IMG/VR virus record: IMGVR_UViG_3300043410_001242
Length of the DNA: 64,000 nt
Origin: a virus
Strand: one strand, 5' to 3'
The translations under genes were made by a program, and so were the position numbers. The notes beneath the pieces are model-generated. The model searched no databases. It was not told the origin of the DNA and worked only from the letters and a program-made list of their open reading frames with translations. Positions 16,510 through 21,476 of this stretch are shown here, in pieces; position 1 is the stretch's first letter, and each line of letters opens with the position of its first letter.

Positions 16510-16567
16510 GACTCCATAAATTGAGTGAACGAACTATTTTTTGTTATTTTTATTTGGAGATTATATT

Positions 16568-17380
16568 ATGCCTCGTGGTATTCCTAAGTCTGGTTTTCGT
16601 ATGACCAAGAATCGTGCTGCTTCTATTGTTGCAGAAGTACCAGTATCCCGTTTTTCAATCAACCAGCGTTTCGGTTTCGTATCTGACATGGTGTCCATGC
16701 TCGCTAACGGTGAGCAGGCCTCTGTTGTTGTTACTGGTCCTGGCGGTCTTGGTAAGTCACACACCGTATACCAGTCTCTTGTCAAGTCTGGTTTCAAAGA
16801 TGTTACCACCCTTGACGGTTTCGATGCTGGCACCGTTCTTGGTAAGAAAACCTTTGTTGTAGTCAAGGGTTACTCTACTGCTAAGGGTTTGTATCGTACT
16901 TTGTTCGAGAACCGTAACGGGGTTATCGTATTCGATGACTGTGATTCGGTACTCAAGGATCCAGTATCTCTTAACATTCTCAAGGGTGCTCTTGATTCTT
17001 ATTCAAAGCGTATTATCTCTTACAAGGCTGATATTCGTGATGATGACCTGCCTAATGTATTCGAGTTCAAAGGTCGCGTAGTATTCATCTCAAATCTTGG
17101 TTCTAATCAGCTGGATCAGGCCATTATCTCACGTTCAATGGCTGTTGATTTGACTATGACTCCCGATCAGAAAGTTGATCGTATGCGTTACCTTATCGAA
17201 CAGTCTGACTTTATGCCAGAGTTTAATAAGTCTCTCAAGGTAGATGCTCTTGATCTTATTTCTTCTCTTGCTGGTACCGTCAAAGACTTGTCGCTTCGCA
17301 CTCTTATTCAGGTAACTAAGATTCGCAAGTCAGCAGGTGCCAATTGGCGTGATCTTGCAGAGTATGCAATCTGTGGTTAA
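16568..17380 (+). CDS. P-loop (AAA-like) ATPase
   Basis: Walker A GPGGLGKS; Walker B VIVFDDCD; VFISN; SRS. Confidence 0.85.
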   Translation: MPRGIPKSGFRMTKNRAASIVAEVPVSRFSINQRFGFVSDMVSMLANGEQASVVVTGPGGLGKSHTVYQSLVKSGFKDVTTLDGFDAGTVLGKKTFVVVKGYSTAKGLYRTLFENRNGVIVFDDCDSVLKDPVSLNILKGALDSYSKRIISYKADIRDDDLPNVFEFKGRVVFISNLGSNQLDQAIISRSMAVDLTMTPDQKVDRMRYLIEQSDFMPEFNKSLKVDALDLISSLAGTVKDLSLRTLIQVTKIRKSAGANWRDLAEYAICG

Positions 17381-17440: not shown

Positions 17441-18589
17441 ATGACTAAAAATCAAAGTGAATTTCTTGATGCTGTTAAACAGGTTCTTGGTGATAAAATG
17501 GTTCTGACCCGATCTGAAATTGATCAGGTCGTGTCAGAGAAAGGTGTTAAGTTTCCATATTGGTTAACCACCAAGTCGAAGTTTCGTATTGGTCGAGGTG
17601 AGTATTCTCTACCTGGTAATGAAACAACCAAGGTAGCAGTAAAAATGGAAATGCCTGAACCTGTCGAGGCAATGGCTCAGGTGTCGTATCTACGTCAACC
17701 TAAACTGGTCGATGAGTCTGATACTGCCATTCCAGAAATTTGGCCTGATTATGTACCATTTGGTTTTTATAAAGATTTACTTAATATTGTAAAATCTAAG
17801 ATGTTTTATCCAGTATTTGTTACTGGTCTGTCAGGTAATGGTAAAACTCTGATGATCGAACAAGTGTGCGCTAAACTGAAAAGGGAGTGTATCCGTGTTA
17901 ATGTATCTATCGAAACTGATGAATCTGACCTATTGGGTGGTCCTACTCTCGTTAATGGTAATGTTGTTAATCGAGATGGGCCGGTTCTTATAGCAATGAA
18001 ACGTGGTGCGGTACTTTTGATTGATGAGGTGGATCGTGGATCGAATAAGCTTATGTGCTTGCAAGGTATTCTTGAAGGAAAGCCATATTATAACAAGAAA
18101 ACCGGCGAGGTCGTATACCCAACCGACGGTTTCAATGTCATTGCGACCGCAAACACCAAAGGTCGTGGTTCAGAAGAAGGTCGGTATCTTTCACAAGTTC
18201 TTGATGATGCCTTCCTGGAACGGTTTCCTATCACGGTAGAACAGGAATACCCGGATGTCAAGACTGAGAGAAAAATTCTCGCACCGTTGATCTCCGACCA
18301 GGAATTCATCGACAATCTGGTCAAGTGGGCGGATGTGGTGCGCCAATCATTCGACCAAGGTGCCATTGATGAGATTATTTCTACTCGCCGACTGGTGCAT
18401 ATCGCGAAAGCATTCCAAATCTTCGGTGATCGTAAAAAGGCAATTGAACTTTGTGTAAATCGTTTTGATACTGACACTAAGAATGCTTTTGTTGATCTAT
18501 ATACTAAAGTCGATGAAAAGGTTGAAGAAGACCAGACCAAGGTTTGGGTGAATGAAACATTAACTATAAATGAAGAAGTGCCGTTTTAA
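17441..18589 (+). CDS. MoxR/CbbQ-NirQ (CobS-like) AAA+ ATPase of T4-like phages
   Basis: GLSGNGKT; LLIDEVD; ATANTKGRGS; LDDAFLERF; ISTRRLV. Confidence 0.9.
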   Translation: MTKNQSEFLDAVKQVLGDKMVLTRSEIDQVVSEKGVKFPYWLTTKSKFRIGRGEYSLPGNETTKVAVKMEMPEPVEAMAQVSYLRQPKLVDESDTAIPEIWPDYVPFGFYKDLLNIVKSKMFYPVFVTGLSGNGKTLMIEQVCAKLKRECIRVNVSIETDESDLLGGPTLVNGNVVNRDGPVLIAMKRGAVLLIDEVDRGSNKLMCLQGILEGKPYYNKKTGEVVYPTDGFNVIATANTKGRGSEEGRYLSQVLDDAFLERFPITVEQEYPDVKTERKILAPLISDQEFIDNLVKWADVVRQSFDQGAIDEIISTRRLVHIAKAFQIFGDRKKAIELCVNRFDTDTKNAFVDLYTKVDEKVEEDQTKVWVNETLTINEEVPF

Positions 18590-19603: not shown

Positions 19604-19644
19604 TTGACAAAATTACTCAAGAATAGTATAATCCAGTATAAATA
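19604..19644 (+). promoter_or_regulatory. Tandem sigma70 and T4-type late promoters for pmoC
   Basis: TTGACA (19604)-17-TATAAT (19627); TATAAATA 19637-19644. Confidence 0.8.
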
Positions 19645-19731: not shown

Positions 19732-20508
19732 ATGTCAGCTATTAGTGCAAATGCTGTTAGAGAGGAAGCACCAGTCTTGAATAAGGCTTGGTTGTCTTTC
19801 GCGTTTGGTTTGTATTTCGTATTCTATCTATGGGTACGTTGGTATGAAGGTGTATATGGTTGGTCCGCAGGACTTGATTCATTCGCACCTGAGTTTGAAA
19901 CCTATTGGATGAATTTCTTATATACAGAAATTGTCCTAGAAGTCACAACCGCAAGTATTCTTTGGGGTTATCTTTGGAAGTCAAGAGATCGTGATCTTGC
20001 CAATATTACACCAAGAGAAGAACTTCGCCGTAATATGACACACCTTGTATGGTTATTTGCTTATGCAAATGCAATCTACTGGGGTGCATCATACTTTACT
20101 GAACAAGATGGTACTTGGCATCAGACTATCGTAAGAGATACTGATTTTACTCCAAGTCATATCATTGAGTTCTATCTTACATACCCAATCTACATTATTA
20201 CTGGGTTTGCTGCATTCCTTTATGCAAAGACAAGACTTCCTTACTTCGCACAAGGACTTAGCCTTCCATACTTGGTAACTGTTGTAGGACCATTTATGAT
20301 CCTTCCAAATGTTGGTCTTAATGAATGGGGACACACCTTCTGGTTTATGGAGGAACTTTTTGTCGCCCCTTTACATTATGGTTTCGTGTTCTTTGGTTGG
20401 CTTGCTTTGGCTATTGCGGGTGTATTGCTACAGGTCTTCTCATCTTTTGCTGGTTTAATCGGCGATCAGATTGTTGAGTCTGTTGATAAGGGTTTGATTG
20501 CAAAGTAA
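19732..20508 (+). CDS. pmoC: Particulate methane monooxygenase subunit C
   Basis: WSAGLDSFAPEFETYWMN; EQDGTWHQTIVRDTDFTPSHIIEFY; NVGLNEWGHTFWFMEELFVAPLHYGF; metal ligands intact. Confidence 0.97.
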   Translation: MSAISANAVREEAPVLNKAWLSFAFGLYFVFYLWVRWYEGVYGWSAGLDSFAPEFETYWMNFLYTEIVLEVTTASILWGYLWKSRDRDLANITPREELRRNMTHLVWLFAYANAIYWGASYFTEQDGTWHQTIVRDTDFTPSHIIEFYLTYPIYIITGFAAFLYAKTRLPYFAQGLSLPYLVTVVGPFMILPNVGLNEWGHTFWFMEELFVAPLHYGFVFFGWLALAIAGVLLQVFSSFAGLIGDQIVESVDKGLIAK

Positions 20509-20528: not shown

Positions 20529-20556
20529 AAAGGGGAACTTCGGTTCCCCTTTTTTA
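20529..20556 (+). terminator. Intrinsic terminator after pmoC
   Basis: AGGGGAAC-TTCG-GTTCCCCT then T-tract. Confidence 0.9.
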
Positions 20557-20562
20557 TTGCAA

Positions 20563-20618
20563 TTTTAATGGAATCTTAATATAACTGTAATACTCCGGTA
20601 ACATTCCTGTGATAAAAT
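20563..20618 (+). promoter_or_regulatory. OmpR/PhoB-type 11-bp-phased direct repeats with extended -10
   Basis: TTTTAAT/TCTTAAT/CTGTAAT/CGGTAAC/CTGTGAT at 20563, 20574, 20585, 20596, 20607; TGaTAAAAT. Confidence 0.5.
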
Positions 20619-20649
20619 ACCTTCGTATTTTTAAACAACGGAGACATAA

Positions 20650-21366
20650 ATGAAGAAATGGTTACTTTTAGTTCTTATTCTTATATCACATTCTGTATTC
20701 GCGAATGGAGAAGGTTCTGAACAATTATTTGGACAATGGACACAGTTTGCAGCTTACGGTAATTTTGGTAACAAAAGTCCTTGGATTTGGTGGACTGATG
20801 TTGCAGTAAGAAGTTCTCAGAATCATAAAGCAAAAGACGGAACACAAGGTTATGACGTTGGTTCTATTCCAACTCATAGCGCAGTAGGATACCAATTTGA
20901 TCCATCCAATTCTTTGATGTTGGGTTATACATATCAGTATAGTCAACCACCATACGCAAAGAAATCAACCAATGAAAATCGTATCTATCAACAATTTCAA
21001 AACTCTTTAGATTGGAAAGAAAACGGTAAACTAACAAACAGAACTAGATATGAACAGAGATGGGTTACATATTCCAGTGAAATGGCTCAAAGGTTGAGAC
21101 ACCAAGTTAAGTTTCAATATCCTATCAATAAAGACTGGGGATTCGTAATTAGTGATGAATTGTTTCTAAATATTAATAGTGTAAACTGGGGACCAAAGGC
21201 TGGATTTGACCAGAATAGAGTGTTTATTGGACCCGTTTACAATATAGATGACAGACAGAGAGTAGAGTTTGGTTACATGAATAACTATGTAAACAAAGAC
21301 TTAAAATCAGATCTAGATAATGATGTGTTAGTTATTAACTATTATTACAATTTTACAGATTATTAG
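20650..21366 (+). CDS. DUF2490-like outer-membrane beta-barrel protein
   Basis: Signal peptide; NENRIYQQF, NRTRYEQRW, RLRHQ, SDELFLN, GFDQNRVFIG, VEFGYMN; aromatic C-terminus. Confidence 0.85.
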   Translation: MKKWLLLVLILISHSVFANGEGSEQLFGQWTQFAAYGNFGNKSPWIWWTDVAVRSSQNHKAKDGTQGYDVGSIPTHSAVGYQFDPSNSLMLGYTYQYSQPPYAKKSTNENRIYQQFQNSLDWKENGKLTNRTRYEQRWVTYSSEMAQRLRHQVKFQYPINKDWGFVISDELFLNINSVNWGPKAGFDQNRVFIGPVYNIDDRQRVEFGYMNNYVNKDLKSDLDNDVLVINYYYNFTDY

Positions 21367-21374
21367 GAGGAATT

Positions 21375-21446
21375 ATGTGGGAAAAACCTTCATTTAAAGA
21401 CATTCGTTTGGGATTTGAAGTAACTACCTATATCTACAATAGATAA
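21375..21446 (+). CDS. pqqA: Pyrroloquinoline quinone precursor peptide PqqA (23 aa)
   Basis: MWEKPSFKDIRLGFEVTTYIYNR: W.KP...D.R.GFEVT.Y..NR signature with Glu-X3-Tyr; AGGAGG RBS at 21365-21370; not in ORF track. Confidence 0.92.
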   Translation: MWEKPSFKDIRLGFEVTTYIYNR

Positions 21447-21447
21447 C

Positions 21448-21476
21448 TTGACAAAACATTCTTATTGTGATACAAT
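21448..21476 (+). promoter_or_regulatory. Sigma70 promoter
   Basis: TTGACA-17-TACAAT. Confidence 0.75.

What the first reader, a model, noticed from the sequence alone, without database searches (positions are those of the whole stretch)
21365..21446. Unannotated phage-encoded pqqA
Seen: AGGAGG overlapping the DUF2490 stop, then MWEKPSFKDIRLGFEVTTYIYNR*. Established: PqqA is a ~23-24 aa peptide whose Glu and Tyr (ExxxY) are cross-linked by PqqE/PqqD and excised to make PQQ, so one peptide is consumed per cofactor. Inference: extra precursor raises PQQ supply, and the gene is too short for standard gene callers, so it may be widely overlooked in phages.
Basis: partly seen in the sequence, partly recalled or inferred. 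Interest (0 to 1): 0.9.

Follow-up and report, generated by a model that had tools for sequence, protein, structure and literature searches.

The report
Phage copy of PQQ precursor gene
A T4-like lake phage that already carries a methane-monooxygenase gene (pmoC) also carries a real, conserved 23-codon copy of pqqA, the peptide that bacteria use up to make the cofactor PQQ for methanol oxidation; this kind of viral gene is mostly unannotated but was first reported in 2020.

Summary
Window 21375-21446 (+) encodes MWEKPSFKDIRLGFEVTTYIYNR behind an AGGAGG that overlaps the stop of the DUF2490 gene. It scores 42 bits on both PqqA models, against cut-offs of 21 and 20.

The window is a T4-like pmoC-phage. 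It has no pqqB-E and no PQQ enzyme. The gene recurs in related phage contigs, with diverged flanks, near-saturated synonymous sites (pN/pS 0.1-0.4) and phage-like GC. It is kept even where pmoC has decayed to a remnant. The DUF2490-pqqA junction is conserved in three independent assemblies.

Most likely it is an auxiliary gene. It would supply the stoichiometrically consumed precursor to the host PqqBCDE pathway, keeping PQQ-dependent methanol dehydrogenase running next to pMMO. This is inferred, not shown.

It is not a new kind:
- Viral PqqA was reported from Lake Baikal in 2020.
- I find it unannotated in cultured methylotroph phages (Venkman, Melnitz and others) and in at least 78 IMG/VR contigs.
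- This scan has already noted phage pqqA in 54 or more other genomes.

New here are its place in pmoC-phages (the pmoC-phage paper never mentions pqq) and a second T4-like lineage with amoC directly upstream of pqqA.

The parts
19604..19644 (+). Promoters ahead of pmoC: TTGACA-17-TATAAT (12/12 match), then TATAAATA 4 nt later (context of the island)
19732..20508 (+). pmoC (subunit C of particulate methane monooxygenase). Nearest named relatives are Methylocaldum (80%) and Methylomagnum (78%).
   Evidence: PF04896 406 bits and NF041641 401 bits
20529..20552 (+). Intrinsic terminator after pmoC (10-bp stem, UUCG loop, T run). It is identical in the metagenome relative L294.
20563..20618 (+). Intergenic leader of the DUF2490-pqqA unit. 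It has heptamers in 11-nt phase (..CTGTAAT-N4-CGGTAAC-N4-CTGTGAT) and TGATAAAAT. This is a candidate regulated promoter and is unproven.
   Evidence: Letters read. About 80% nucleotide identity to L294, although the DUF2490 protein is only 54% identical. No such boxes upstream of 37 host pqqA genes.
20650..21366 (+). DUF2490 gene: signal peptide plus a predicted outer-membrane beta-barrel of about 12 strands. It is the operon partner of pqqA.
   Evidence: PF10677 143 bits; model pLDDT 82.8; weak likeness to KdgM, NanC, OmpG and FadL
21365..21370 (+). Shine-Dalgarno AGGAGG overlapping the DUF2490 stop codon
   Evidence: the TAGGAG junction is conserved in L294 and L290
21375..21446 (+). pqqA: 23-codon PQQ precursor peptide with Glu15 and Tyr19
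21448..21476 (+). Sigma-70-type promoter (TTGACA-17-TACAAT with TG) directly after the pqqA stop. It serves the next conserved gene and marks the 3' end of the pqqA unit.
   Evidence: conserved in L010, L014, L290 and L294
21503..21822 (+). Conserved phage gene of unknown function (no Pfam family) that follows pqqA in all close relatives

Best explanation
Window 21375-21446 is a genuine, translated, stand-alone pqqA gene in a T4-like phage of gammaproteobacterial (Methylococcales) methanotrophs. The phage has none of the processing enzymes. The peptide can therefore only act as substrate for the host's PqqD/PqqE (Glu15-Tyr19 cross-link), protease, PqqB and PqqC, which turn one peptide into one PQQ. 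Because the peptide is consumed stoichiometrically, a phage copy would keep PQQ synthesis supplied. This matters once host transcription is taken over. The copy is expressed from the phage island, probably together with the DUF2490 outer-membrane barrel, downstream of pmoC. PQQ is the cofactor of the periplasmic MxaF/XoxF methanol dehydrogenases, which take the product of pMMO. So pmoC and pqqA together would prop up two consecutive steps of methane oxidation that power phage replication. Shown here: the gene's identity, its phage location, its orphan status, its conservation and purifying selection, and the presence of pqqABCDE in the host order. Inferred: translation, processing to PQQ, and any gain in PQQ or phage fitness.
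For: Identity: PF08042 42.4 bits and TIGR02107 42.2 bits, about twice the curated cut-offs. The W-x-K-P leader, R-x-G-x-E-V-T-x-Y core and C-terminal IYNR match Methylococcales PqqA at 17-18 of 22 positions.

Phage setting: T4 gp59, gp32, baseplate wedge and hub, and PhoH lie in the same window.

Orphan status: tblastn with Methylococcales PqqB-E finds nothing in the window or in 158 viral loci, apart from one host flank.

Selection: the ORF and its SD are conserved while the flanks diverge. Among 9 phage copies pS is mostly 0.5-1.0 and pN/pS 0.1-0.4; two near-identical pairs are uninformative. GC is 0.31, like the phage (0.36), against a mean of 0.47 for host pqqA.

Independent retention: L293 and L294 keep pqqA although pmoC is reduced to its last 37-39 codons.

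Recurrence: the DUF2490 stop/SD/pqqA junction recurs in three independent assemblies, with DUF2490 only 54-81% identical.

Host pathway: canonical pqqABCDE operons and extra orphan pqqA copies occur in Methylococcales genomes.

Precedent: methylotrophs carry up to five pqqA copies, and orphan copies are the most highly expressed during PQQ production (PMC9851590). Viral PqqA was proposed as an auxiliary gene in Lake Baikal methylotroph phages (PMC7678222). Lone pqqA passes the Pfam cut-off in the cultured methylotroph phages Venkman (43.3 bits) and Melnitz (37 bits).
Against: Only a minority of pmoC-phages carry the gene. It is in 5 of 81 pmoC loci, and five large pmoC-phage contigs, one of them complete, lack it, so it is dispensable. 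No recognisable promoter lies directly upstream. In L014, and probably in L008, pqqA follows the pmoC terminator directly, so its expression level is uncertain. The residue between Thr and Tyr is Thr or Cys in these phages but Met or Leu in the hosts; the effect on processing is unknown. Whether PqqA, rather than PqqE or PqqB, limits PQQ synthesis in Methylococcales is not known.
Confidence: 0.75

Rival explanations
1. The peptide is a decoy or modulator. It binds host PqqD/PqqE but is processed poorly, because of the unusual Thr/Cys before the Tyr. It would then throttle or redirect host PQQ synthesis rather than feed it.
For: The pmoC-phage copies share EVT[T/C]Y, whereas 39 Methylococcales copies have EVT[M/L]Y. 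Nothing shows that the peptide is turned over.
Against: All residues scored by the equivalog model are present, at twice the cut-off. Phages of other methylotrophs carry host-type copies, and Venkman's is 100% identical to a Methylophilaceae PqqA, which fits supply rather than inhibition. Lowering PQQ would cut the energy flow that the neighbouring pmoC is thought to sustain.
Confidence: 0.07
2. The gene is a neutral passenger: a scrap of host DNA captured with pmoC or other host genes and not yet lost.
For: It is patchy among pmoC-phages. It lies in a hypervariable island with rearranged neighbours.
Against: Synonymous sites are near saturation while the peptide is conserved. The SD is conserved. 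Base composition has been ameliorated to the phage's. The gene is retained where pmoC has decayed. In host genomes pqqA was not found next to pmoC or DUF2490, so a single co-capture is unlikely.
Confidence: 0.07
3. The peptide works with the DUF2490 outer-membrane barrel in a role unrelated to the host PQQ pathway. Examples would be an exported peptide or a partner of the barrel.
For: The two genes are translationally juxtaposed (stop overlapping SD, 8-nt gap) in three diverged assemblies.
Against: Most phage pqqA copies have no DUF2490 neighbour. PqqA has no signal peptide. No pqqA lies next to any of 80 bacterial DUF2490 homologues.
Confidence: 0.06
4. It is a chance ORF that is not translated.
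For: It has only 23 codons, below gene-caller thresholds.
Against: HMM E-value is 6e-11 against 952 small ORFs. It has a consensus SD. Conservation is confined to the ORF. There is no RNA structure signal (z = +1.1).
Confidence: 0.01

Closest known systems
Bacterial PqqA (Pfam PF08042, NCBIfam TIGR02107) of Methylococcales, both the operon-leading copy and the orphan second copy
   Same: Same length and same W-x-K-P...R-x-G-F-E-V-T-x-Y-I-Y-N-R layout; 17-18 of 22 residues identical. Like the host's orphan copy (L277-L281) it stands apart from pqqB-E.
   Different: It is encoded by a lytic-type T4-like phage. It is AT-rich (GC 0.31 against a mean of 0.47). It has Thr, not Met or Leu, before the Tyr, and Ile in D-I-R. 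It is coupled to a DUF2490 barrel gene.
Virus-encoded PqqA of Lake Baikal methylotroph phages (VP_266; Coutinho et al. 2020, Microbiome 8:163, PMC7678222)
   Same: A lone viral pqqA, interpreted as an auxiliary gene that supports PQQ-dependent methanol oxidation.
   Different: Those phages are assigned to methylotrophs rather than methanotrophs, and their island carries methanol dehydrogenase. This one sits beside pmoC in a phage of Methylococcales-type methanotrophs.
Unannotated pqqA of cultured methylotroph phages (Venkman, Melnitz 1-3, MEP301/401/402, P19250A)
   Same: A stand-alone ORF of 23-24 codons; the two copies scanned (Venkman, Melnitz) pass the Pfam PqqA cut-off. It is missed or mis-annotated in GenBank.
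   Different: Only 12 of 22 residues match the two copies read (Venkman and Melnitz), which are of the Methylophilaceae type with ..[11 protein letters not shown]... The phage lineages and hosts differ. No pmoC is annotated in the flanks inspected.
pmoC-phages (Chen et al. 2020, Nat Microbiol 5:1504, PMC7674155)
   Same: A large freshwater phage with a stand-alone pmoC. 80 IMG/VR relatives of the pmoC were retrieved.
   Different: That paper does not contain the strings pqq or pyrroloquinoline. The pqqA (and DUF2490) addition is confined to a sub-clade whose PmoC is 87-88% identical to this one.
Cyanophage psbA-type auxiliary genes
   Different: This is an analogy only. The product here is a cofactor precursor, not an enzyme subunit.

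Membership tests
PqqA (PF08042 / TIGR02107) | Scores above the curated cut-offs of the family models | tested here: met
   42.4 bits against 21.1, and 42.2 bits against 20
PqqA (PF08042 / TIGR02107) | Small peptide of about 20-40 residues with Glu and Tyr spaced E-x-x-x-Y, the residues that become PQQ | tested here: met
   23 aa, Glu15-Val-Thr-Thr-Tyr19
PqqA (PF08042 / TIGR02107) | Conserved leader and core W-x-K-P ... R-x-G-x-E-V-T-x-Y shared with experimentally studied gammaproteobacterial PqqA | tested here: met
   Matched over model positions 1-19 of 19 and 1-21 of 21; compared with 39 Methylococcales copies
PqqA (PF08042 / TIGR02107) | Encoded at the head of a pqqBCDE operon | tested here: not met
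   No PqqB-E in the window or in related viral loci. This is not disqualifying: orphan copies exist in Methylococcales and in methylotrophs (PMC9851590).
PqqA (PF08042 / TIGR02107) | Cross-linked by PqqE/PqqD and converted to PQQ | not testable with these tools
   Needs an in vitro assay or complementation. The peptide is too short for the complex-prediction tool (30-residue minimum).
Phage auxiliary metabolic gene | Lies inside a bona fide phage genome, flanked by phage genes, and not on a host flank | tested here: met
   T4-like genes on both sides. The same arrangement occurs in independent contigs L010, L014, L290, L293 and L294.
Phage auxiliary metabolic gene | The host lineage has the pathway that the gene feeds | tested here: met
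   pqqABCDE operons in Methylococcales (L282, L283). The pattern is present in 83 of 301 genomes of the order.
Phage auxiliary metabolic gene | Maintained by purifying selection in phages | tested here: met
   pN/pS 0.1-0.4 with pS mostly 0.5-1.0; flanks diverged
Phage auxiliary metabolic gene | Expressed during infection | not testable with these tools

The most novel reading that the evidence does not exclude
Pairing a copper-monooxygenase subunit C gene with pqqA is a recurrent phage module that was assembled independently at least twice. One case is pmoC-(DUF2490)-pqqA in freshwater T4-like phages of Methylococcales. The other is an AOB-type amoC placed directly upstream of pqqA, between gp23 and uvsY, in a second T4-like lineage. 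That would imply that PQQ precursor supply is a general bottleneck whenever a phage props up a CuMMO-based energy metabolism. Alternatively, PQQ (or PqqA) could have an unrecognised link to CuMMO function, including in hosts regarded as ammonia oxidisers.
Probability: 0.25. Interest if true: 0.7.

Novelty: new member of a known kind. Interest (0 to 1): 0.42.

Why it matters
It extends the auxiliary-gene set of methanotroph phages from the first step of methane oxidation (pmoC) to the cofactor of the second step (methanol dehydrogenase). That sharpens the idea that these phages sustain, rather than merely exploit, methane oxidation in lakes.

It is also a clean example of a functional gene that standard callers miss. 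The exact peptide is absent from 15 billion called proteins, and the homologous gene is unannotated in cultured methylotroph phages. Surveys of viral auxiliary genes therefore undercount it.

The gene is easy to test, because a 23-mer peptide and a PQQ assay suffice. The class itself is already published, so the gain is incremental.

Tried and rejected
- The search for homologous proteins and the search for related loci refuse a 23-aa query. I used degenerate DNA patterns instead.
- The genome search with family TIGR02107 found nothing even in the control genomes, so it is insensitive for this 21-position model. I replaced it with pattern searches.
- No whole genome is held for the window, and blastn of the island against GenBank phages found nothing.
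- DUF2490 gave no relatives in IMG/VR. Its bacterial relatives are 36% identical or less (Nitrospirota, Bacteroidota), and none has a pqqA nearby. The barrel does not reveal the origin or role of pqqA.
- A class-level genome sample centred on a mislabelled MAG gave no methanotroph. Three attempts to obtain handles failed because the genomes are not held. Whether Nitrosomonadaceae hosts have pqqBCDE therefore stayed untested.
- I looked for the phased heptamers upstream of DUF2490 in front of 37 Methylococcales pqqA genes and found none. There is no support that they are the host's pqq regulatory boxes.
- RNA folding of the pqqA region shows no structure beyond shuffles (z = +1.1), so an RNA-element reading is rejected.
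- An exact 43-mer of the junction is absent from JGI metagenome contigs. The degenerate pattern then found six relatives.
- Complex prediction was not used, because the peptide is below its 30-residue minimum.

Full report
**Observation.**
- The DUF2490 ORF (20650-21366) ends in TAG.
- AGGAGG (21365-21370) overlaps that stop.
- An ATG at 21375 opens a 23-codon ORF ending at 21446, which encodes MWEKPSFKDIRLGFEVTTYIYNR.

The peptide matches Pfam PqqA (PF08042) over the whole 19-position model at 42.4 bits (gathering score 21.1, E = 6.1e-11). It matches the NCBIfam equivalog TIGR02107 over all 21 positions at 42.2 bits (cut-off 20). The window has 952 ORFs of 20 codons or more, so the match is far beyond chance. 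Glu15 and Tyr19 are the pair that PqqE cross-links in the established pathway.

**Setting.** The window is a T4-like phage. It encodes:
- baseplate wedge, hub and tube-cap proteins, and a gp32-type SSB;
- gp59, a T4 baseplate protein, PhoH, a PD-(D/E)XK nuclease, and GIY-YIG and NUMOD3 homing-endonuclease-like genes.

Directly upstream of pqqA lie a full-length pmoC (19732-20508, 406 bits) and the DUF2490 gene. The PmoC is closest to Methylococcaceae-type sequences: Methylocaldum 80%, Methylomagnum 78%, Methylohalobius 79%. IMG/VR holds 124 viral contigs with relatives of it. This is therefore a pmoC-phage of the kind described by Chen et al. 2020. That paper does not contain the strings pqq, pyrroloquinoline or DUF2490.

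**Transcription signals.**
- pmoC has a perfect TTGACA-17-TATAAT promoter, followed by TATAAATA, and its own terminator at 20529-20552.
- No consensus promoter precedes DUF2490-pqqA.
- A strong promoter (21448-21476) begins two bases after the pqqA stop and serves the next gene.
- pqqA is therefore the last cistron of a short DUF2490-pqqA unit. It is expressed either by read-through of the pmoC terminator or from the unusual leader at 20563-20618.

**Is it maintained?** Among the 80 pmoC loci fetched, pqqA occurs in four others: L008, L009, L010 and L014. All four have a PmoC 87-88% identical to this one. A scan of JGI metagenome contigs with a degenerate pattern added six more. Evidence for selection is as follows.
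- Alignments show diverged flanks, while the SD, the ORF and the downstream promoter are conserved.
- Across nine phage copies, synonymous differences are mostly near saturation (pS 0.5-1.0) and pN/pS is 0.1-0.4; two near-identical pairs are uninformative.
- GC of the ORF is 0.31. The window is 0.36 and 39 Methylococcales pqqA genes average 0.47. The gene has therefore resided in phages for a long time.
- L293 and L294 keep pqqA although pmoC is reduced to its last 37-39 codons. Selection on pqqA does not depend on pmoC.
- The DUF2490-pqqA junction (TAG overlapping the SD, 8-nt gap) recurs in L290 and L294. DUF2490 there is only 81% and 54% identical.

The gene is also dispensable. Syntenic relatives L005 and L011-L013 lack it. 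So do five large pmoC-phage contigs, one of them complete.

**What it can do.** tblastn with PqqB, C, D and E from a Methylococcales operon finds nothing in the window. In the 158 viral loci it finds only one host flank. No PQQ-dependent enzyme is in the window. The peptide can therefore act only through host enzymes.

Methylococcales genomes have the canonical pqqA-pqqB-pqqC-pqqD-pqqE operon (L282, L283). Some also have a second, orphan pqqA beside MauG/CCP-type di-haem peroxidases and a sensor kinase (L277-L281). The host peptide of L282 is annotated by NCBI as PqqA of Methylococcales. The phage peptide is 17-18 of 22 identical to both host types and shares their IYNR tail. Against the Methylophilaceae-type copies of Venkman and Melnitz it matches only 12 of 22. 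A 22-residue comparison cannot resolve a donor beyond that.

One PqqA is consumed per PQQ. Methylotrophs multiply pqqA (five copies in one strain), and orphan copies are the most expressed during PQQ production (PMC9851590). The best reading is therefore an auxiliary gene that keeps precursor available for PQQ-dependent methanol dehydrogenase, the enzyme next to pMMO in the pathway. This step is inference. I could obtain no expression data and cannot test processing.

**Rivals.**
- A decoy that blocks PqqD/E is conceivable, because these phages have Thr or Cys where hosts have Met or Leu before the Tyr. It runs against the logic of the neighbouring pmoC. It also runs against host-identical copies in other phages: Venkman's peptide is 100% identical to a Methylophilaceae PqqA.
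- A neutral passenger is contradicted by the selection data.
- A role tied only to the DUF2490 barrel is unlikely, because most phage copies lack that neighbour and 80 bacterial DUF2490 loci have no pqqA.
- A chance ORF or an RNA element is excluded.

**Comparison with what is known.**
- Viral PqqA was reported in Lake Baikal methylotroph phages together with a viral methanol dehydrogenase (PMC7678222). It was listed again among viral P-cycling genes in 2026 (PMC13188868).
- tblastn of GenBank phages finds the ORF in Venkman, four Melnitz isolates, MEP301, MEP401, MEP402 and P19250A. In most there is no annotated feature. In Melnitz a wrong-strand hypothetical CDS lies over it. The Venkman and Melnitz copies pass the Pfam cut-off.
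- A strict degenerate pattern finds 78 IMG/VR contigs, and all eight copies tested pass the cut-off. Part of these are host flanks of Klebsiella-type prophages.
This scan has already recorded phage pqqA in at least 54 other genomes, with the same conclusion.
- Specific to this case are the pmoC-phage setting, the conserved coupling to an outer-membrane barrel gene, and the adjacency described next.

**Second lineage.** Clustering the neighbours of all viral pqqA copies shows about 30 T4-like contigs with pqqA in the variable gap between gp23 and uvsY. In five of them (L103, L110, L126, L131, L154) a 270-aa AmoC sits directly upstream of pqqA.
- That AmoC is only 50% identical to this window's PmoC.
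- It is closest to betaproteobacterial ammonia-oxidiser sequences: a Nitrosospira MAG at 85% and Nitrosomonas eutropha at 68%.
- A 2026 preprint on amoC-phages does not mention pqq.

Subunit C of a copper monooxygenase and pqqA have thus come to lie side by side in two separate phage lineages. I could not determine whether the hosts of the second lineage have pqqBCDE. This is the basis of the more novel reading, to which I give about one chance in four.

**Verdict.** This is a real, selected, phage-borne pqqA: a new member of a known kind of auxiliary gene. The mechanism is plausible and readily testable, but untested.

Noticed in passing
L103:3656-4635, L110, L126, L131, L154 (IMG/VR): A second T4-like lineage has the order gp21-gp22-gp23-small ORF-AmoC (270 aa, AOB type, 50% identical to this PmoC)-pqqA-unknown-UvsY-2OG oxygenase-UvsW. 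Sister contigs have pqqA without amoC. The amoC-phage preprint does not mention pqq. Whether the hosts have pqqBCDE is unknown.
   Followed up: partly
L293:3997-4107 and L294:174-290 (JGI metagenome contigs): Close relatives of this phage retain only the last 37-39 codons of pmoC plus its terminator, yet keep pqqA. L294 also keeps DUF2490.
   Followed up: partly
window 20553-20649 compared with L294:330-460: The leader between the pmoC terminator and DUF2490 is about 80% identical in L294, although the DUF2490 protein is only 54% identical. The terminator hairpin is identical. The phased heptamers noted by other first readers lie here. They are not found upstream of 37 host pqqA genes.
   Followed up: partly
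window 20650-21366: DUF2490 has a signal peptide and a C-terminal aromatic residue. It models (pLDDT 82.8) as a small outer-membrane beta-barrel with only weak likeness to KdgM, NanC, OmpG and FadL. Its bacterial relatives are 36% identical or less, mostly Bacteroidota and Nitrospirota and not methanotrophs.
   Followed up: partly
L090, L095, L104, L108, L109, L113, L117, L135, L141, L144, L145, L149: A Klebsiella/Enterobacter-type pqqA (MWKKPAFIDMRLGLEVTLYISNR or a close variant) lies at the very end of lambda-like prophage contigs of about 40 kb. It is beside tail-fibre genes and has no pqqB within 4 kb. The prophage seems to sit immediately downstream of pqqA.
   Followed up: no
L284:2461-2569 (Melnitz-1, MZ577095.1 74848-74956): GenBank annotates a 31-codon hypothetical CDS on the opposite strand across the real pqqA ([33 protein letters not shown], 37 bits). 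It lies between phage tRNA genes.
   Followed up: yes
L277-L281 (Methylococcales genomes G430, G459, G435, G471, G467): An orphan second pqqA (..RLGFEVTLYI[YH]HR) lies next to two MauG/CCP di-haem cytochrome c peroxidases, a DAHL-domain sensor kinase and a TAT-exported metallophosphoesterase, far from pqqBCDE.
   Followed up: partly
L100:1674-1748: The peptide [24 protein letters not shown], found beside gp23 on T4-like viral contigs, is deposited in NCBI as PqqA of a 'Candidatus Pelagibacter sp.' MAG on a 20-kb contig. That contig is probably a phage contig binned with the bacterium.
   Followed up: no
L001-L003 (IMG/VR): Their PmoC is 94-95% identical to this window's, but none of the flanking genes match. 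Nearly identical pmoC copies therefore sit in different phage backgrounds.
   Followed up: no
window 17441-18589 and 16541-17380: A CbbQ/NorQ-type AAA+ ATPase (AAA_5 plus CbbQ_C) and a second AAA-like gene lie just upstream of the island. They are conserved with it in L005, L010-L012, L014 and L293.
   Followed up: no
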